Positions 26,165-32,000 of a stretch of 32,000 nucleotides of DNA are shown here, piece by piece (the first letter of the stretch is position 1; every line of letters starts with the position of its first letter). The position numbers and the translations under genes were made by a program. Where the stretch lies: assembly GCA_964354495.1 (NCBI GenBank), contig CAYHAA010000001.1, positions 188,075 through 220,074 of the forward strand, read 5' to 3'. The DNA comes from an uncultured archaeon. GTDB taxonomy: Archaea; Asgardarchaeota; Thorarchaeia; Thorarchaeales; Thorarchaeaceae. The notes below the pieces were generated by a model, which worked only from the letters and a program-made list of their open reading frames with translations, did not search any database and was not told the DNA's origin.

Positions 26165-26638
26165 TTGGCTTACAGAGTGATAATTCGTTGCCCAGATGCA
26201 GAGGACATCATCAGACTCCTCAAGGAGAAGCATGGCGCTGACTACTCACGGGTATGGCGAATAGATGGCCGCACATTTGGAGTATTCTCATTTGAGAGGA
26301 GCGCAATTTTCCCTTATACTTCGTATGTCAGTTTAATCACGCTTGAACATGACAAGACTTCAGAGAGATGTGACATCACCATAATCGGAGCAGGGGGCTC
26401 AGTGAGAGGAGTCACTGAACTGGATTCTCCTAGAGCAGGTCAAGTGCAAGATCTTGCCAGTCTAGCTAAGGCGCGGGGATGGGAGACACACATAGAAGAA
26501 GCAAAGATAAAATCGCGAGGTAGTCCATGTCCTAACTGCGGCTCAGCTTATGTCTATTCTAAAGACAAGATTCAGGCAGATGGCTCAGTGGTCTGCCAGA
26601 ACTGCGGAAAACCATTCATGATTCAAGAAGGACGATGA
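26165..26638 (+). CDS. Hypothetical protein with C-terminal Zn ribbon (N-terminus loosely DUF6054-like)
   Basis: CPNC-x17-CQNC; alpha/beta N-terminal domain with FER..SL...I.AGG; fills an otherwise empty gap; TTG start after GGTGG. Confidence 0.7.
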   Translation: MAYRVIIRCPDAEDIIRLLKEKHGADYSRVWRIDGRTFGVFSFERSAIFPYTSYVSLITLEHDKTSERCDITIIGAGGSVRGVTELDSPRAGQVQDLASLAKARGWETHIEEAKIKSRGSPCPNCGSAYVYSKDKIQADGSVVCQNCGKPFMIQEGR

Positions 26639-26793
26639 ATAGTGCATGTTTGATGCCGGCTACACATGCAACCAGCTTATTCCTAGGGCCTGTTCTTCAT
26701 CATCTATTCAATCGGCATAGACTCAAATAGCGGAAATAACATTTATCGCCCGGTGTCCCAAGAGTGGATACCAACTAGTTCAGGGTGCATAAG

Positions 26794-27360
26794 ATGGTAA
26801 CTGCACTATTCAAGGTCGTACTCATGGGAGATGGAAGCGTCGGAAAGACGAGTCTCCGTAGGACCTACATGGGAGAAGGATTCCGAGCCAACTACATGAT
26901 CACCATTGGTGCTGACTTTGCAGTGAAGAAGATGCAGCTTCATGGCGGCCATGATGTAAGCATTCAGATCTGGGATCTCGCAGGACAGGAACACTTCAAG
27001 AGTGTACGTTCCACCTTCTACCGTGGAGCTCAGGGTGCACTTGCGGTGTATTCAACTGTCGAGCGGGGATCTTTTGATAACCTTATGAATTGGGTGGACG
27101 AGTGCTGGACCAATGCTGGCAAGAAGATACCAATCGTACTGATTGCGAACAAGACTGACCTTCGAGACCAGTTCAAGGACAATCCAGTCATGGCGAAGAC
27201 CATCGTGACCACAAAAGAAGGTCAGAAACTGGCAGACAAGATTGCAGGCTATGGTGTAATCACATCCTTCCTTGAAACGAGTGCAAAGACAGGAATAAAT
27301 GTAGAGGCTGCCTTCCTAGAACTGGCAATCAAGATTCTGGAAGCTGGTGGACTGGCCTAA
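26794..27360 (+). CDS. Rab-like small GTPase 1
   Basis: GDGSVGKT, TIGADF, WDLAGQ, FYRGA, NKTD, ETSAK; no C-terminal Cys motif. Start placed at ATG 26794. Confidence 0.92.
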   Translation: MVTALFKVVLMGDGSVGKTSLRRTYMGEGFRANYMITIGADFAVKKMQLHGGHDVSIQIWDLAGQEHFKSVRSTFYRGAQGALAVYSTVERGSFDNLMNWVDECWTNAGKKIPIVLIANKTDLRDQFKDNPVMAKTIVTTKEGQKLADKIAGYGVITSFLETSAKTGINVEAAFLELAIKILEAGGLA

Positions 27361-27370
27361 TCACAGTCCA

Positions 27371-28591
27371 TCAATCATCTTCTAACACTCCAAGGTTTCT
27401 CTGTATCGTTTCAAAAAGATCACTAGCAGCAGTCTGGAGTATCTCTGCATCGTCCGCAAAGATGTCAATCCGGATTCTGGATAGGCTGTCTTCCTTTTTG
27501 CCAACAACAGTTGTTGTGACTGCAATTCTGGTTCCACTGAATTTGCCCCTTGCTAGTCCTGCTTCAACTCCCATGAATACTCCTCCCCTCTCTAGAACAT
27601 CATTTTGGAATACGTAGAGGTTCTTGCCTTCTAGAATTGGCTGTATGGACTTGAAGAAGCCTGTTGCCTCTGCAAGTACAGTATGCTCCCGGTTCCATTG
27701 TTTCATCTTCGACTTCATATGGACGAACTCATCGGATGTTGTTTCAAGAGGGATGAACCGCTCAAACAAAGAGCGCACAAAGACATTTCCTGCCTTTGCT
27801 GAGAGATCCTCACCTTTAGAGTCCATAAGGTGCACAGAAGTGATGATCTCTCCTTCTATACACTCACCATGAATTGTGAAACCAAAGATGAGCGAGCCAC
27901 TCTGCCCTTGGTCGATGAACTCTATTGTTTGTGCCAACGGATCGACTGGCACAAGGGACTCCTGTGGATATGCAAGGATTTTCACAGTGATGTCGCTTAT
28001 CGGAGTGTCCATCTCATTCTTTATAGTGATGCCATACTCCAATGTTTCAGAGGTAGTTGTGTACTGGTTCACGATAAGGACATCATCCGTTGTCCGGAGA
28101 GGAATCGTATCAGTATCGAGAAGCAGCTCGGTTGGGTCCTCTCGCGATTTTGCTGATGGTTTGCTTTTTCGCGCCTCTTTGCCATATTTCATGAGCCATT
28201 CTAGGGCGAATTCTACTACCTCTTTCACCGTTGAATCATTATCACTAGTATGTTTCTTGAGAATAGGTACAGCATCACTTCTGTTCGTGTGTGCCAACAT
28301 ACCTGCTGCTACTGTTCGTATCAGCGGGTTTTCATTGTTCAGAGCAATGTCCAGAGAATCGAACGCATCAGCACCAAACTCTCCCAATCTGCAGACTGCG
28401 AGTAGTTGCAGATCTTCATCACCAGTCAGAGCTGCGTCTCTACACGCCTGAATGCTCATGACCTCTCTCAACATCCTCTCTATTTTATCTTCAGTCGGCT
28501 TGAAGATTCGCTTTATTGCTTTCTTTAACCCACTGACTGATTCTCCACCACCAAGCGCTTCTGACACTACTCTATCAGGTTTTTGGGGCAA
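27371..28591 (-). CDS. HEAT-repeat protein with a C-terminal adaptin/coatomer appendage-like region (Ig-like sandwich plus platform)
   Basis: HEAT-type repeats (LLAVCRLGEFG; LIRTVAAGMLAH; VKEVVEFALEW), linker, beta-rich domain (YGITIKNE..TPISDITV), then FERFIPLETTSDEF...RIRIDIFADD. HEAT call is firm; appendage call is by eye. Confidence 0.7.
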   Translation of the reverse strand: MPQKPDRVVSEALGGGESVSGLKKAIKRIFKPTEDKIERMLREVMSIQACRDAALTGDEDLQLLAVCRLGEFGADAFDSLDIALNNENPLIRTVAAGMLAHTNRSDAVPILKKHTSDNDSTVKEVVEFALEWLMKYGKEARKSKPSAKSREDPTELLLDTDTIPLRTTDDVLIVNQYTTTSETLEYGITIKNEMDTPISDITVKILAYPQESLVPVDPLAQTIEFIDQGQSGSLIFGFTIHGECIEGEIITSVHLMDSKGEDLSAKAGNVFVRSLFERFIPLETTSDEFVHMKSKMKQWNREHTVLAEATGFFKSIQPILEGKNLYVFQNDVLERGGVFMGVEAGLARGKFSGTRIAVTTTVVGKKEDSLSRIRIDIFADDAEILQTAASDLFETIQRNLGVLEDD

Positions 28592-28752
28592 GGAATTACC
28601 TTCGAGGCATCTCGCTCTTGTTTTGGTATTTAATCATTATTGTGCGTGAAGTGAAACCTGTCATCTGCAACACAGGTACCGAGCTTTGTCTGCATTCACA
28701 ACACTTTTACGGCATCCCTGAATTCTTTCTCTGTCAATCGGCCTTGCGTGTG

Positions 28753-29883
28753 ATGTCAATGGGGAACGATGAACAAGACATTTTCTTGAAACCCACCATC
28801 CTTAAGCCACCAGCTGAACATGGCTCCGAGATAACGCGTCGTTTTACGATGAACCGTGTGGGTCGGATGTTCGCCGCAGCTCTTCAAGACCGAAGTATCC
28901 GACTCTACGCGGCTGATGACTGGACTGAGATGCAACGTATGCAGGATGACTTCCTCAGCACGTCTCTTGCCTTCAGTCCAAGAGGTGACATTGTAGCCTC
29001 GGGAACTGTAGAACGGATAGTGAAGCTATGGGACATCCGCTCGGGAGAGTGCATAGGAGCTCTTGAGGGGCATACATATCCTGTATTGTCGCTCTCATTC
29101 TCTCCTGATGGTAGCAGACTGGTGTCAGGAAGTGGTGACACATCTCTGATTATCTGGAATGTTGAAAATCGCTCGCTAGTTCGTCAGATGAAAGGCCATG
29201 GCTTCTATGTCGTGGCCGTAGACTGGGACCCACAAGGTAGCCGAATTGTTTCAGGCTCTGTAGATGCCAACATCTGCGAATGGGATGCAGAAACGGGGAA
29301 AATCATTGCACGTCACAGTGACCATCGAGCAGCAGTCAGAGAGGTTCGATTCAGCCCTGATGGTTCACTGCTTGCGTCTGGCTCATCTGATCTAACAGTG
29401 CTACTGTGGGACACCTCATACAAACCGATGAAAGTCGCACATACACTTCAACGGCATGAGAGTGAGGTCAGGGCTTTGGGCTTTAGCAGCGATGGACGTT
29501 ATCTGGCCTCCGGGTCTGGTGACAGGGTGATCTATCTTTGGGACGTTGCAACACAGACTGTTCGGGGTGAGGCATCCACAATGGGCGAGATTGACGGAAT
29601 CGAATGGTATCCCTCTCGGAGTGCTTTCCTAACCGCTGATGGCACAGGTGCTATCATTCGCTGGGACGTAGACGACATGAATGCAATGTTAGAGCCATTC
29701 CAATCCCTATTGAAAGAGATAGAAACTGCGAACGATCCGAGCCGCAAGAATGAGTTCATCAACCAATACGAAACTCTTTGTGCGCAGTATGATGAGGAAA
29801 CTCTACAGACCAAACGCATGTTCTATGTAGTATGGCAATGCAAACGTGCTCTTGGCCTATTGAAAGGAACTACACGTCAATAA
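28753..29883 (+). CDS. Seven-bladed WD40 beta-propeller protein with short helical C-terminus
   Basis: Seven repeats ending RLY, LWD, IWN, EWD, LWD, LWD and RWD, with GH/DH/RH dipeptides. Start placed at ATG 28753 (or 28759). Confidence 0.9.
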   Translation: MSMGNDEQDIFLKPTILKPPAEHGSEITRRFTMNRVGRMFAAALQDRSIRLYAADDWTEMQRMQDDFLSTSLAFSPRGDIVASGTVERIVKLWDIRSGECIGALEGHTYPVLSLSFSPDGSRLVSGSGDTSLIIWNVENRSLVRQMKGHGFYVVAVDWDPQGSRIVSGSVDANICEWDAETGKIIARHSDHRAAVREVRFSPDGSLLASGSSDLTVLLWDTSYKPMKVAHTLQRHESEVRALGFSSDGRYLASGSGDRVIYLWDVATQTVRGEASTMGEIDGIEWYPSRSAFLTADGTGAIIRWDVDDMNAMLEPFQSLLKEIETANDPSRKNEFINQYETLCAQYDEETLQTKRMFYVVWQCKRALGLLKGTTRQ

Positions 29884-29884
29884 T

Positions 29885-30439
29885 CTAGCCTTGGAATGCA
29901 GGATTAGTAGGCTTTGACCTTCCCTCTTCGATCATCGTCTTGCATAGCGTGACATATGCTTCCTCTACGTTTTCGCCAGTGAGGGCACTGGATTCAACAT
30001 ACAGGAAGCCATTCTTCTTGGCGTATTCCTCTCCTTCCTCTTTGCTCACCGCTCTGCTATCAACGAGGTCTACCTTGTTTGCTACTACGACGAGTGGAAT
30101 CTTGTCCTTCAGGTTTTTGAATGCCTCTTCTTTCCAGGCATCCGAGTTAATGAAAGTCCTCCGCCTCGTCACGTCGTAGAGCAGGAGACCACCTCTAGAC
30201 CCTCTATAGAAACCCTGCCTGACGAACTCGAAACGCGGCTGACCTGCAAGGTCCCAGATCTGCAGTGTCACATGTGCGTCCAACTCAGGTATGACAAGTC
30301 TCTTGACGGAGAAATCAGTGCCAATGGTCCTCTTGTAGTCCGCTTCAAAGTAGTCCTGAGTGAATCTAGTTGTCATGGCAGTCTTGCCGACTGCACCATC
30401 ACCGAGCATCACAATCTTGAATCGAAATTCAGCGGACAT
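29885..30439 (-). CDS. Rab-like small GTPase 2
   Basis: GDGAVGKT, TIGTDF, LQIWDLAGQ, FYRGS, LLYDVT, NKVD, ESSAL; no C-terminal Cys motif. Start placed at ATG 30439 (track: 30454). Confidence 0.92.
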   Translation of the reverse strand: MSAEFRFKIVMLGDGAVGKTAMTTRFTQDYFEADYKRTIGTDFSVKRLVIPELDAHVTLQIWDLAGQPRFEFVRQGFYRGSRGGLLLYDVTRRRTFINSDAWKEEAFKNLKDKIPLVVVANKVDLVDSRAVSKEEGEEYAKKNGFLYVESSALTGENVEEAYVTLCKTMIEEGRSKPTNPAFQG

Positions 30440-30477
30440 GAGAACGAACTCCATCTTCTTTGAGAGAGGCTTAAGGC

Positions 30478-30574: not shown

Positions 30575-30958
30575 ATGGAACGACCAGATTATCGCGAACT
30601 TCCCAAGATTCTCGAGACTATGAATAGAGAGGGCAGCTATTCTGCCTCAGTTCTCGCGCGTGGAAATGGTCTACTTGTTTCATCAGCCACATCCCCCAAG
30701 ACTAACCAAGATGTGGTCGCAGCAATGTGCGGGATGATTGCTGATGTTGCTGAGCGAGTTCGAAAGGAGTTGTTTCTGGGAGAGATCAAGGACATCAGTC
30801 TTCGTTGTGCAGATGGAAAGGCGGTCTTCAAACGAGTAGGTGCTCGAGGTGATGATATATTGATTATCGGGGCAATCATGGCCCGAGATGTTCGCTATCA
30901 CTCCCGGGCAATAGGCAAGGCAACCACAAGAATCCGTATCCTTATGGGGTACAAATGA
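30575..30958 (+). CDS. Roadblock/LC7 (MglB-like) domain protein
   Basis: SVLA..NGLLVSS, VAAM...I..VAERV..EL.LGE, followed by beta strands; size is typical. Confidence 0.85.
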   Translation: MERPDYRELPKILETMNREGSYSASVLARGNGLLVSSATSPKTNQDVVAAMCGMIADVAERVRKELFLGEIKDISLRCADGKAVFKRVGARGDDILIIGAIMARDVRYHSRAIGKATTRIRILMGYK

Positions 30959-31059
30959 ACGAAGCGCCTTCTTTGGTGCAATATTACACATCTTCAAAAC
31001 ATTCAAGTGATATCTCATTCATCTAATGGTGCCGTTTCTTCACCTTAGGAGTGCGTGAC

Positions 31060-31380
31060 TTGAAGACAGAACCAATCGTGTCAGAGGCGGAGCATTCCGA
31101 CATGATTGAGATTGTTCTCTTCAAATCCGATTCATGTGCGTTCTGTCCGAGGGCTGAAGAAGTGGTGATAGAAACAATTAATGACTTTGGACCTGGTATA
31201 TTCAAGCTAACAGTCATCAATGTCAGTGAGAATCCAGAGGCTGCTGAAGAATACGGCATCTTTGCCTTACCAACAGTAATGATTGGAGGCGTATCAATCA
31301 CTGGTATTCCCGAACCGGAGATGCTTATGAAAATGGTACTCGGAGCCAAGGTCATGATGAAGAAGAAGGGTGAAACCTGA
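31060..31380 (+). CDS. Thioredoxin-fold protein (CxxC), KaiB-resembling
   Basis: CAFCP; V.V.ENPE.AEEYGI.ALPT; G.P. Start placed at TTG 31060 after AGGAG (track: 31051). Confidence 0.85.
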   Translation: MKTEPIVSEAEHSDMIEIVLFKSDSCAFCPRAEEVVIETINDFGPGIFKLTVINVSENPEAAEEYGIFALPTVMIGGVSITGIPEPEMLMKMVLGAKVMMKKKGET

Positions 31381-32000
31381 TGAGCGATTATGTAATAGAC
31401 CGAGTAAAGACTGGCATTCCAGGTCTTGATGAGCTGATAGAAGGAGGTTTTCCAAAGGGAGACACCATCCTTATTGCGGGAAAAGCTGGCACCGGCAAGA
31501 GCATACTTGCGACTCAGTTCATCTACAAAGGTGTCACTGAGTATAATGAGCCAGGAGTGTTTGTGACGCTAGAAGAGCCTCCCAGGCTGATCAGAAGGAA
31601 TATGCTCAGATTTGGTATGGACCTTCAAAAGCTCGAGAAAGAGGGCAAGATCTCAATTGTGGACCTCTCCCCCTCTAAGGAAGCCACTCCTGTCACATTG
31701 GTGGAGTATCCGAGTTTCGACCTGTCTGGTCTACAGGCGATAATAATGAATCACATCAAGAAGATCCATGCTACTCGCGTTGTACTTGATACCCTCTCGA
31801 TTATGGCTTACAAATTTCGAAGCCGGGATATTCTCAGGGAGGAATTCTTCAAGCTCGCAGCCAACATCACGCGAACTGGATGCACACTCCTGATTACGAG
31901 TGAGATTCCGGCACAAGAAACAGGATTGGGCGTCTTCGATATGGAGGCCTTCTTGGCATCAGGCGTGATAGTTCTCTATAACGAGAAGATATCCGATACA
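31380..32000 (+). CDS. KaiC/RAD55-like RecA-fold ATPase, 3' end truncated by window
   Basis: Hand translation from ATG 31380: TGIPGLDELIEGGFP, Walker A GKAGTGKS, VTLEE, Walker B RVVLD, TSE, GVIVL; open to 32000. Confidence 0.9.
   Translation, partial: MSDYVIDRVKTGIPGLDELIEGGFPKGDTILIAGKAGTGKSILATQFIYKGVTEYNEPGVFVTLEEPPRLIRRNMLRFGMDLQKLEKEGKISIVDLSPSKEATPVTLVEYPSFDLSGLQAIIMNHIKKIHATRVVLDTLSIMAYKFRSRDILREEFFKLAANITRTGCTLLITSEIPAQETGLGVFDMEAFLASGVIVLYNEKISDT

What the first reader, a model, noticed from the sequence alone, without database searches (positions are those of the whole stretch)
27371..28591. Miniature large-adaptin architecture: short HEAT trunk, linker and bilobed ear
Seen: about three HEAT-like repeats, a charged linker (KEARKSKPSAKSRED), a beta-rich domain of ~100 aa and an alpha/beta domain starting FERFIPLETTSDEF and ending RIRIDIFADDAEILQTAASDL. 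From memory this matches the alpha-adaptin ear platform pattern (FFQPTEMASQDF...YRLTLRTS....RLCELL). Inference: this has the trunk-hinge-ear order of AP large subunits and beta/gamma-COP, with a much shorter trunk.
Basis: partly seen in the sequence, partly recalled or inferred. Interest (0 to 1): 0.8.

Follow-up and report, generated by a model that had tools for sequence, protein, structure and literature searches.

The report
Compact HEAT-hinge-adaptin-ear protein of Thorarchaeia
This Asgard (Thorarchaeia) gene encodes a small soluble protein in which a few HEAT repeats are joined by a floppy hinge to a two-lobed "ear" domain like that of eukaryotic vesicle-coat adaptors. Published surveys looked for this domain order in Asgard archaea and did not find it, but here it looks like a lineage-specific fusion rather than a shrunken adaptin.

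Summary

**What it is**
- ORF 27371-28591 (-) is a real, conserved 406-aa gene with 182 homologues.
- Its parts are a basic amphipathic N-terminus, about three PBS-type HEAT repeats, a roughly 25-residue disordered hinge, a beta-sandwich and an alpha/beta platform.
- An unbiased search of 48,161 PDB chains puts AP/COPI ears in the top five (alpha-adaptin Z 15.9). Beta-COP's ear gives Z 18.4 over 223 residues.
- All 30 best Swiss-Prot models are beta/gamma-COP, TPLATE or AP large subunits, aligned from the HEAT part through the ear.

**Why it is not filed as an adaptin**
- The trunk is a generic HEAT_2 array with no Adaptin_N signal.
- The FxxxW platform motif is absent.
- No sigma/mu-type partners were found.
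- Full-length orthologues occur only in some genera of one Thorarchaeial family.
- The gene sits, inverted, inside an otherwise adjacent GTPase-WD40 pair that five sister genera keep without it.

**Context**
- Ear domains in Asgard archaea are already published. Direct HEAT-hinge-ear fusion is not; Eme et al. 2023 looked for an ear downstream of Adaptin_N and did not detect one.
- This scan noted the same family earlier in another genome, and other ear architectures elsewhere.

**Most likely function**
- A tethered docking scaffold. A link to the neighbouring GTPase/WD40/roadblock genes is only weakly supported.

The parts
27371..28591 (-). Whole gene: 406-aa HEAT-hinge-ear protein (TTG start, stop at 27371-27373)
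   Evidence: ORF and translation. 182 homologues. AF2 model with mean pLDDT 80.5.
28457..28591 (-). Residues 1-45: conserved N-terminal segment with a GGG(E/D)(S/T) motif and a basic amphipathic helix (about 18-39); net charge +3, whereas the rest of the protein is acidic
   Evidence: G14 and G15 are invariant; A12, G16 and L22 are nearly invariant. It has the highest hydrophobic moment in the protein, 0.73-0.77, and the mean over 41 orthologues is 0.74. pLDDT is 45-63.
28184..28456 (-). Residues 46-136: about three PBS-lyase-type HEAT repeats (the short 'trunk')
   Evidence: Pfam HEAT_2 at 57-130. VIA Z 15-16 to alphaRep HEAT arrays. PDB sequence hits to alphaRep at E 1.5e-6.
28097..28183 (-). 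Residues 137-165: hinge. It has a variable charged part (about 139-151) followed by a conserved acidic-leucine motif, ENPxE(I/L)L(L/I)(D/E)x(D/E)xIPL(R/K)T
   Evidence: pLDDT <50 at 142-163. Entropy peaks at 141-150, and the motif is conserved across orthologues.
27767..28096 (-). Residues 166-275: Ig-like beta-sandwich subdomain of the ear
   Evidence: Strands 166-274. It aligns to the sandwich of the alpha, beta2, beta-COP and gamma-COP ears.
27374..27766 (-). Residues 276-406: platform (TBP/helix-grip-like) subdomain of the ear, with family-invariant W299-N-R-x-H, N324 and R374-x-D376
   Evidence: Topology beta-alpha-beta-alpha-beta4-alpha at pLDDT >90. It aligns to platforms of AP/COPI ears and to the AP-4 beta4 platform, Z 13.7. 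A marginal profile hit to beta-COP 828-882 falls at the equivalent position.
28592..28752 (.). 161-bp divergent intergenic region between the HEAT-ear start and the WD40 start (ATG 28753)
   Evidence: Sequence. The WD40 start is set by orthologue lengths of 374-377 aa.
26785..27360 (+). Neighbour: Rab/Ras-like small GTPase 1, convergent with the HEAT-ear gene (10 bp between the stops); the likely true start is ATG 26794
   Evidence: Pfam Ras at 1.8e-46. It is 76-95% identical across loci and always flanks the HEAT-ear gene.
28753..29883 (+). Neighbour: 376-aa WD40 beta-propeller protein with a C-terminal helical tail of about 70 aa, divergent from the HEAT-ear gene
   Evidence: Pfam WD40 at 2.7e-47. 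Conserved partner of GTPase 1 in loci with and without the HEAT-ear gene.
29885..30454 (-). Neighbour: Rab/Ras-like small GTPase 2
   Evidence: Pfam Ras at 7.2e-50. Syntenic in all loci.
30575..30958 (+). Neighbour: Roadblock/LC7 protein
   Evidence: Pfam Robl_LC7 at 2.4e-7. Syntenic in all loci.

Best explanation
**What it is.** The gene encodes a soluble cytoplasmic scaffold found only in part of one Thorarchaeial (Asgard) family. It has four parts:
- a conserved basic amphipathic N-terminal segment;
- about three PBS-lyase-type HEAT repeats;
- a disordered hinge of about 25 residues that ends in a conserved acidic-leucine motif;
- a C-terminal two-lobed appendage (Ig-like sandwich plus TBP/helix-grip-like platform) homologous to the 'ears' of AP, COPI and TSET large subunits.

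**What is shown.** The fold, the domain order, the conservation, the narrow distribution, a single origin of the fusion, and the position of the gene.

**What is inferred.**
- It works as eukaryotic ears do, as a docking hub held on a flexible tether. The ear binds partner proteins or short motifs, probably on the platform face that carries the family-invariant W299/R301/H303 and R374/D376.
- The HEAT array and the amphipathic N-terminus hold a second partner or a membrane.
- The hinge motif may itself be a short linear binding motif.
- Origin: HEAT and ear were joined once (a single origin of the fusion), as one product of the wide shuffling of ear modules in Asgard archaea. It is not a reduced adaptin.
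- A working link to the flanking Rab-like GTPase, WD40, GTPase and roadblock genes is possible but only weakly supported.
For: **Ear fold**
- beta-COP ear Z 18.4 (223 aa, rmsd 3.6 A); alpha-adaptin Z 16.2-16.7 (210 aa); beta2 13.9; gamma-COP 13.5; BBS9 11.7.
- The ear-only model (pLDDT 94) was searched without Foldseek against 48,161 chains. The top five were all AP/COPI ears. Every match covering both lobes was an ear or BBS9. Single-lobe matches reached Z 11.7 at most.
- Foldseek against PDB gave E 7e-12 to 1e-8.
- The 30 best Swiss-Prot models are all COPI, TPLATE or AP large subunits, aligned across HEAT plus ear. ESM Atlas rows for beta-adaptin, beta-COP and alpha-adaptin give TM by query 0.46-0.54.

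**Sequence-level hints**
- Language-model features of residues 160-406 match adaptin/COPI ear clusters at 0.91-0.84.
- 8 of 41 orthologues weakly hit Coatomer_b_Cpla, best E 0.0016.
- A platform profile hits beta-COP 828-882 at the structurally equivalent place, E 0.11.

**HEAT type.** HEAT_2 in 41 of 41 orthologues.

**Hinge and N-terminus.** pLDDT, entropy and hydrophobic moment. No transmembrane segment (maximum KD19 0.93).

**Shuffling**
- The ear module is homologous (E 1e-39 to 1e-10) to ears fused to zinc ribbons, LRR, beta-propellers, beta-helices and a UFM1-ligase domain.
- The HEAT-ear ears form one group at 100/100 support.

**Distribution.** Full-length matches occur in about 45 genomes of one GTDB family (7 genera) out of 400 Asgard genomes. 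Elsewhere only the ear matches.

**Position**
- The arrangement is always GTPase1 -> <- HEAT-ear, then WD40 ->.
- In five sister genera GTPase1 and WD40 are co-directional and about 75-450 bp apart with no gene between them: about 75-100 bp in four loci, about 450 bp in G329.
Against: **No functional data**
- No partner, ligand or membrane binding was tested.
- No RNA data set holding the gene was listed.

**Weak sequence similarity**
- Similarity to eukaryotic ears is not significant on its own (E 0.1-0.15 against PDB sequences).
- Ear homology therefore rests mainly on predicted structure.

**Ligand site**
- The canonical FxxxW motif is missing. F288 is kept, the Trp position is K292, and W299 has K295 at -4.
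- Ligand binding, if any, must therefore differ from AP2/COPI.

**Origin still open**
- The ear of this family sits on a long branch apart from all other archaeal ears. 'Derived by shuffling from a known paralogue' is therefore not shown.
- The species-level tree does not resolve gain versus loss.

**Synteny is weak evidence here**
- The whole region from PolB to KaiC is syntenic across the family.
- The neighbourhood therefore says little about function.
Confidence: 0.6

Rival explanations
1. Relic mini-adaptin in a proto-coat. On this reading the protein keeps the ancestral trunk-hinge-ear plan of AP/COPI large subunits. It acts with the flanking Rab-like GTPase and WD40 propeller, and with the roadblock protein as a longin-like small subunit, as a GTPase-recruited primitive coat or adaptor.
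For: - The domain order is the same. All 30 top Swiss-Prot models are large coat subunits, aligned over HEAT plus linker plus ear.
- The best single match is the beta-COP ear.
- The gene lies between a small GTPase and a beta-propeller gene, with a second GTPase and a roadblock gene next door, in every locus that has it.
- Its ear is a separate deep lineage and is not nested in another archaeal ear subfamily.
- The first-stage note e1-5383293 proposes the same cassette.
Against: - The trunk is a 90-aa generic HEAT_2 array. Adaptin_N is not among the families hit by 41 orthologues.
- The family is confined to some genera of one Thorarchaeial family. It was not found in the other Asgard families sampled.
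- The GTPase1-WD40-GTPase2-roadblock block is kept intact in five genera without the gene. That block therefore does not depend on it.
- The gene is on the opposite strand to both neighbours.
- No Clat_adaptor_s hit in the genome, and only a sub-threshold mu-homology hit.
- FxxxW is absent.
Confidence: 0.15
2. ESCRT-side ear protein. Like other archaeal appendage-region proteins described around ESCRT systems, it would feed cargo or regulators to ESCRT. It would be a functional analogue of ESCRT-0, unrelated to its gene neighbours.
For: - Makarova et al. 2024 (PMC10936438) link archaeal ear regions to ESCRT loci and to Vps28-C/SB/longin fusions in Asgard archaea.
- The ear is homologous to those archaeal ear modules.
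Against: - The protein has no Vps28-C, SB, longin or zinc-ribbon domain.
- No ESCRT gene is among the annotated genes of the 32-kb window or in the syntenic loci.
Confidence: 0.12
3. Convergent look-alike. On this reading the C-terminal half is a chance combination of a common Ig-like sandwich and a common helix-grip domain, not homologous to eukaryotic ears. The protein would be a generic HEAT scaffold.
For: - Sequence identity to ears is only 7-15%, and profile-to-sequence E-values are above 0.1.
- Each lobe alone also matches many unrelated Ig-like or Bet v 1-like proteins at Z 9-12.
Against: - Both lobes superpose together in one fixed orientation on ears (188-223 aligned residues, Z up to 18.4). 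No non-ear, non-BBS9 chain does so among 48,161.
- Weak sequence signals all point to the same families and to the equivalent region.
Confidence: 0.07

Closest known systems
COPI large subunits beta-COP and gamma-COP (PDB 9qpq_H, 5a1u, 1pzd, 1r4x)
   Same: - The order is the same: HEAT solenoid, then a short linker, then a sandwich-plus-platform appendage.
- This is the best structural match of the ear (beta-COP Z 18.4; gamma-COP 13.0-13.5).
- The only weak sequence signal is to the beta-COP platform.
   Different: - The trunk has about 3 HEAT repeats (90 aa) instead of about 600 aa of Adaptin_N solenoid.
- There is no FxxxW motif.
- No evidence of a heptameric or tetrameric complex, or of delta/zeta partners.
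- It is archaeal and lineage-restricted.
AP-2 alpha- and beta2-adaptin (ears 1b9k, 1w80, 2vj0, 1e42)
   Same: - Bilobed ear (alpha Z 15.9-16.7 over about 210 residues; beta2 13.7-13.9).
- A flexible hinge lies between solenoid and ear.
- A short conserved acidic-leucine motif in the hinge recalls, loosely, hinge motifs such as the clathrin box (inference only).
   Different: - The hinge is about 25 residues, against about 100.
- The W840-type FxxxW platform site is not conserved.
- The trunk is far shorter and of the PBS-lyase HEAT type.
- Archaea have no clathrin.
Archaeal and Asgard 'adaptin appendage region' proteins (Liu et al. 2021 preprint 10.1101/2020.10.19.343400; Makarova et al. 2024, PMC10936438), including the ear-plus-zinc-ribbon paralogues in this same genome
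   Same: - The IG-plus-TBP bipartite module is homologous (E 1e-39 to 1e-10).
- The phylum is the same.
- The module is reused with many N-terminal domains.
   Different: - No C-terminal zinc ribbon, Vps28-C, SB or longin domain.
- No ESCRT neighbourhood.
- The ear forms a separate long-branch group.
- The N-terminal partner domain is a HEAT array joined directly through a hinge.
Asgard Adaptin_N proteins and stand-alone ear domains reported by Eme et al. 2023 (PMC10307638)
   Same: The same search for AP/COPI building blocks in Asgard genomes. HEAT and ear domains are both present in the phylum.
   Different: - That paper's supplement states that no B2-adapt-app_C or Alpha_adaptinC2 was detected downstream of Adaptin_N, and its legend says the domains are 'not fused to each other'.
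- Here a HEAT array is followed directly by an ear in one chain. Neither part reaches the Pfam adaptin models.

Membership tests
AP/COPI/TSET large subunits (adaptin family) | N-terminal Adaptin_N-type alpha-solenoid trunk of about 500-600 residues | tested here: not met
   - Only residues 46-136 are HEAT (about 3 repeats).
- Pfam gives HEAT_2, HEAT, Cnd1 and HEAT_EZ. Adaptin_N is not among the 25 most-matched of the 34 families matched by 41 orthologues at E<=1.
AP/COPI/TSET large subunits (adaptin family) | Flexible linker (hinge) between trunk and appendage | tested here: met
   pLDDT <50 at 142-163. This is the most variable alignment segment, at 141-150.
AP/COPI/TSET large subunits (adaptin family) | C-terminal bilobed appendage: Ig-like beta-sandwich plus platform subdomain in a fixed arrangement | tested here: met
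   - beta-COP Z 18.4 over 223 aa; alpha-adaptin Z 15.9-16.7 over about 210 aa; beta2 13.7-13.9; gamma-COP 13.0-13.5.
- The top five of 48,161 chains are all ears.
AP/COPI/TSET large subunits (adaptin family) | FxxxW ligand-binding motif on the platform (PMC2262067) | tested here: not met
   - The only Trp in the ear is W299, with K295 at -4.
- In the profile alignment to beta-COP, the F of FRQMW matches F288 and the W position is K292.
- That alignment is marginal (E 0.11). The absence of any FxxxW in the sequence is direct.
AP/COPI/TSET large subunits (adaptin family) | Assembly with a medium (mu/delta) and a small (sigma/zeta) subunit into a core | tested here: inconclusive
   - Own genome (97.7% complete): no PF01217 match, but the model also rang in no control genome.
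- One sub-threshold PF00928 hit (21.5 bits, cut-off 31.6) elsewhere on contig 1.
AP/COPI/TSET large subunits (adaptin family) | Recruitment to membranes by an Arf-family GTPase | not testable with these tools
   Two Rab/Ras-like GTPase genes flank the locus. No binding test gave an answer.
Archaeal/Asgard adaptin-appendage-region proteins (Makarova et al. 2024) | IG-like plus TBP-like bipartite region, homologous in sequence to other archaeal ear modules | tested here: met
   - phmmer hits to ear modules of proteins 260-2800 aa long, E 1e-39 to 1e-10.
- BLASTP 23-27% identity over about 210-235 aa, E 1e-21 to 6e-22.
- Two paralogues in the own genome.
Archaeal/Asgard adaptin-appendage-region proteins (Makarova et al. 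2024) | Association with ESCRT (an ESCRT gene neighbourhood, or fused Vps28-C/SB/longin domains) or a C-terminal zinc ribbon | tested here: not met
   - No such domain in the protein.
- No ESCRT genes among the window's genes or the syntenic loci.
PBS-lyase-type HEAT repeats (Pfam HEAT_2, PF13646) | Match to the HEAT_2 profile above the gathering score, and a HEAT hairpin fold | tested here: met
   - 27.9 bits against 27.7 in this protein.
- 41 of 41 orthologues match, best 3.1e-16.
- Z 15-16 at rmsd below 2 A to alphaRep.
BBSome BBS1/2/7/9-type subunits | N-terminal beta-propeller followed by GAE-plus-platform modules | tested here: not met
   - BBS9 GAE/platform aligns at Z 11.2-11.7, weaker than AP/COPI ears.
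- This protein has no propeller.

The most novel reading that the evidence does not exclude
The protein is a surviving miniature of the ancestral coat large subunit (solenoid-hinge-ear). Together with the adjacent Rab-like GTPase, the WD40 propeller and the roadblock protein, it forms a GTPase-switched proto-coat or adaptor that deforms or sorts at membranes in Thorarchaeia. The hinge motif would dock on the propeller, much as clathrin-box motifs dock on clathrin's terminal domain.
Probability: 0.12. Interest if true: 0.9.

Novelty: new variant of a known kind. Interest (0 to 1): 0.55.

Why it matters
How vesicle coats arose is an open question in eukaryogenesis.

- **Published state.** Surveys found HEAT/Adaptin_N-like proteins and ear domains in Asgard archaea, but reported them as separate or as part of ESCRT-type fusions.
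- **What this adds.** This family shows that a solenoid-hinge-ear chain, the plan of every AP/COPI/TSET large subunit, exists in an Asgard lineage. It is only 406 residues long and therefore easy to express, crystallise and use in binding assays.
- **If it is an independent fusion.** That is the more likely case. It then shows that this architecture arises readily from the Asgard domain pool. It also offers a simple model for what an archaeal ear binds.
- **If it works with the neighbouring genes.** It would then be the first candidate archaeal adaptor linked to a small GTPase.
- **Limit.** The narrow distribution limits what it says about the ancestor of eukaryotes.

Tried and rejected
- **Complex prediction.** GTPase 1, WD40 and HEAT-ear were folded together as three chains with my own alignments. 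The result was 'no answer' (score 0.00). It is not used for or against binding.
- **RNA evidence.** No RNA holder was listed among the public runs for 26785-29883. I did not lay reads.
- **Direct sequence searches for ear families.**
  - Pfam and NCBIfam on the protein itself give nothing for the C-terminal half.
  - Profiles of the ear (A5) and of the platform (A6) against PDB sequences give only E 0.1-0.15 to beta-COP. Beta-arrestin and acylphosphatase score at the same level.
- **Gain versus loss.** The WD40+GTPase1 tree of loci with and without the gene is unresolved at depth. One origin is neither excluded nor shown.
- **Bacterial-type promoter/terminator scan.** It found no more sites than shuffled sequence gives, and it is not suited to archaea.
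- **Motif readings.** I considered reading the hinge motif as a clathrin box or an acidic dileucine signal. The consensus does not fit either pattern strictly, so it is kept only as a conserved motif of unknown partner.
- **W299 as the equivalent of alpha-adaptin W840.** The marginal beta-COP alignment instead places W299 at the second Trp of beta-COP's FEW. I rejected the W840 equivalence.
- **Coordinates.** I could not map conserved residues onto surfaces.
Full report
**The gene.** ORF 27371-28591 on the minus strand encodes 406 residues from a TTG start. The start is supported because orthologues are conserved from the first residues: K4, R7, G14 and G15 are invariant. The word-index search found 182 homologues at E<=1e-3. 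Nearly all are 396-420 aa long, 49-84% identical among the 119 non-self listed, and labelled Thorarchaeota where a name exists. The exhaustive search added orthologues down to 30% identity. It is a real, conserved gene. The window has the gene content of an Asgard archaeon: Ras/Rab-like GTPases, roadblock, WD40 and family-B DNA polymerase.

**Anatomy.**
- Pfam sees only HEAT_2 at residues 57-130. All 41 aligned orthologues hit HEAT_2, best 3.1e-16.
- The AlphaFold2 model built on 41 orthologues (mean pLDDT 80.5) shows helices up to residue 136 and a segment with pLDDT below 50 at 142-163. After that come a nine-strand beta domain at 166-274 and an alpha/beta domain at 279-399.
- A second model of residues 160-406, built on 58 diverse ear sequences, has pLDDT 94.
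- The hinge is the most variable stretch. It ends in a conserved motif, ENPxE(I/L)L(L/I)(D/E)x(D/E)xIPL(R/K)T.
- The N-terminal 45 residues are conserved and basic. They hold the strongest amphipathic helix of the protein (moment 0.73-0.77, orthologue mean 0.74). The rest is acidic, and there is no transmembrane segment.

**What the C-terminal half is.**
- Foldseek against the PDB ranks COPI beta/gamma subunits and the alpha-adaptin, beta2-adaptin and gamma-COP appendages first (E 7e-12 to 1e-8), then BBS9.
- VIA-align on those hits gives the following:

| Ear | Z | Aligned residues | rmsd |
|---|---|---|---|
| beta-COP | 18.4 | 223 | 3.6 A |
| alpha-adaptin | 16.2-16.7 | about 210 | not quoted |
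| beta2-adaptin | 13.9 | not quoted | not quoted |
| gamma-COP | 13.5 | not quoted | not quoted |
| BBS9 | 11.7 | not quoted | not quoted |

- That was a re-ranking of Foldseek's own list. I therefore searched the ear-only model against 48,161 representative chains without Foldseek.
  - The five best were again AP/COPI ears: alpha 15.9, AP-4 beta4 platform 13.7, beta2 13.7, gamma-COP 13.0 and 12.0.
  - Every match that covers both lobes is an ear or BBS9.
  - Single-lobe matches to Ig-like or helix-grip proteins stay at Z 11.7 or below.
- In the Swiss-Prot AlphaFold library, all 30 best hits are gamma-COP, beta-COP, TPLATE or AP alpha/beta subunits. Each is aligned from about residue 47 to about 399 of the query against its last HEAT repeats, linker and appendage. 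ESM Atlas models of beta-adaptin, beta-COP and alpha-adaptin give TM 0.46-0.54 by query.
- Sequence-only signals are weak but point the same way.
  - Language-model features of residues 160-406 match adaptin/COPI ear clusters at 0.91-0.84.
  - 8 of 41 orthologues weakly hit Coatomer_b_Cpla.
  - A platform profile hits beta-COP 828-882, the structurally equivalent place, at E 0.11.

**Why I do not file it as an adaptin.**
- The trunk is about three PBS-lyase-type HEAT repeats. Adaptin_N is not among the families matched by the orthologues.
- The FxxxW platform motif that binds ligands in AP2 and COPI (PMC2262067) is absent. F288 is kept, but the Trp position is K292. The family's own invariant W299 aligns with a different Trp of beta-COP.
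- The 97.7%-complete genome gives no sigma/zeta-type hit, and only a sub-threshold mu-homology hit elsewhere. The sigma/zeta model also rang in no control genome, so this is not evidence of absence.

**Distribution and origin.**
- Among 400 Asgard genomes, full-length matches occur in about 45 genomes, plus about six contig-end fragments. They fall in seven genera of the window's own GTDB family.
- Other genera of that family, and a few other Asgard families, match only with the ear part.
- The ear module is homologous to ears attached to very different N-terminal parts.
  - These include zinc-ribbon arrays, LRR, WD40/BBS7-like/SBBP/LVIVD propellers, NosD beta-helices, a solute-binding domain and a UFM1-ligase domain. 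Most of them carry a C-terminal zinc ribbon.
  - Two such paralogues lie in this genome.
- In a tree of 58 ears the HEAT-linked ears form one group with 100/100 support, on a long branch apart from all the others. So the fusion arose once, but its source among ear families is not resolved.

**Neighbourhood.**
- In every locus with enough flank, the order is PolB, DUF8156, GTPase 1 ->, <- HEAT-ear, WD40 ->, <- GTPase 2, roadblock ->, thioredoxin, KaiC-like x2. This holds down to 31% identity of the HEAT-ear protein.
- Five sister genera without the gene keep exactly the same block. There GTPase 1 and WD40 are co-directional and 75-450 bp apart, about 75-100 bp in four loci and about 450 bp in G329.
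- The HEAT-ear gene is thus an inverted insertion into, or a loss from, a conserved GTPase-WD40 pair. That pair does not need it, and the whole region is syntenic anyway.
- A tree of the flanking genes does not resolve gain versus loss.
- The protein evolves much faster (31-73% identity) than GTPase 1 (76-95%) or WD40 (53-81%).
- The neighbourhood therefore supports a functional link only weakly.

**Mechanism.**
- Shown: a soluble protein with a HEAT array, a disordered tether and an adaptin-type ear.
- Inferred from what ears do in AP and COPI complexes (established knowledge; PMC2262067):
  - The ear is a docking platform for partner proteins or short motifs, here through a family-specific surface. 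Candidates are the invariant W299/R301/H303 strand and R374/D376.
  - The HEAT array and the amphipathic N-terminus hold a second partner or a membrane.
  - The conserved hinge motif may be a linear motif for a third partner.
- I give about 0.9 to the structural identity, about 0.5 to the tethered-hub function, and about 0.3 to a link with the neighbouring GTPase/WD40 genes.

**Comparison with the literature.**
- Liu et al. (preprint 10.1101/2020.10.19.343400) and Makarova et al. (PMC10936438) described adaptin/COPI C-terminal domains in Asgard and other archaea. Those were mostly in ESCRT contexts, or fused with Vps28-C, longin, TPR or zinc ribbons.
- Eme et al. (PMC10307638) reported Adaptin_N and stand-alone ear domains 'not fused to each other'. 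Their supplement states that no ear domain was detected right downstream of Adaptin_N.
- A 2026 structural-modelling paper and a 2026 clustering preprint do not mention such a fusion in their text.
- I found no description of this compact HEAT-hinge-ear family in the papers I could search. Figures and some supplements are not held, so prior depiction cannot be excluded.
- AlphaFold DB clusters also contain longer, unnamed TPR/solenoid-plus-ear proteins of about 570-1000 aa.

**Earlier notes of this scan.** They record the same family in another genome (e1-4542594) and several other ear architectures. They also record the cassette idea for this locus (e1-5383293).

**Verdict.**
- The protein is best called a new variant, by domain architecture, of the known Asgard ear-domain proteins.
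- It works like the C-terminal part of a coat large subunit, but it fails membership of the adaptin family on the trunk and on the ligand motif.
- Interest is moderate. It fills a gap that was explicitly noted in the literature and is an attractive small model. Against that, it is lineage-restricted and probably an independent fusion.

Noticed in passing
Own genome outside the window: G000 contig 9, 100123-100899 (-) (locus L007), and contig 2, 145902-146549 (+) (locus L008): Two ear paralogues. One is a 741-774-aa protein made of repeated CxxC...H zinc-ribbon modules, then an ear, then a terminal zinc ribbon. A second similar zinc-ribbon gene lies next to it. The other is a 368-aa protein with a hydrophobic N-terminus, a low-complexity region, an ear and a zinc ribbon.
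   Followed up: partly
Proteins P0139, P0147, P0149, P0162, P0164 and members of alignment A2: Many ear homologues carry N-terminal domains that are usually extracellular: LVIVD and SBBP propellers, TSP3 repeats, NosD/beta-helix and SBP_bac_5. They may be membrane receptors with a cytoplasmic ear-plus-zinc-ribbon tail. I did not check for transmembrane segments.
   Followed up: no
Proteins P0232 and P0235: P0232 (607 aa) joins a BBS7/BBS2-like beta-propeller (E 1e-5, just under the cut-off) to an ear, which is a BBSome-like layout. P0235 (704 aa) joins an E3_UFM1_ligase segment to an ear, as Liu et al. described.
   Followed up: no
window 26785-27360 and 28753-29883; loci L021-L025: GTPase 1 and the WD40 gene form a conserved co-directional pair in genera that lack the HEAT-ear gene, about 75-100 bp apart in four loci and about 450 bp in G329 (L023). 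GTPase 1 is unusually conserved (82-95% identity where WD40 is 53-81%). This pair, with GTPase 2 and roadblock, may be a functional unit in its own right.
   Followed up: partly
window 26165-26638 (+): A 157-aa ORF with a C-terminal zinc ribbon lies between DUF8156 and GTPase 1. It is not part of the conserved block. One related locus (L001) has a PNPOx-type gene there, and others have nothing.
   Followed up: no
Genome G375, contig 101, 1752-2939: The orthologue in this genome has one in-frame TGA. This could be a sequencing error, a pseudogene or recoding.
   Followed up: no
Own genome: contig 1, 43969-44157 (-), and contig 2, 7802-9001 (+): A 595-aa ORF has a sub-threshold match to the mu-homology domain (PF00928; 21.5 bits, cut-off 31.6). 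A 473-aa HEAT protein passes the Adaptin_N cut-off only when its pieces are summed, and that model also rings in Bacillus and in methanogens.
   Followed up: no
window 31051-32000: A thioredoxin-fold gene overlaps the start of a KaiC-like ATPase gene, and a second KaiC-like gene follows just beyond the window's end, as seen in the related loci. The pair follows the roadblock gene in all related loci.
   Followed up: no
ESM Atlas row 4: A cluster of 382-aa eukaryotic (Parabasalia) hypothetical proteins aligns to residues 47-404 at TM 0.46-0.49. These could be small HEAT-plus-ear proteins in a eukaryote.
   Followed up: no
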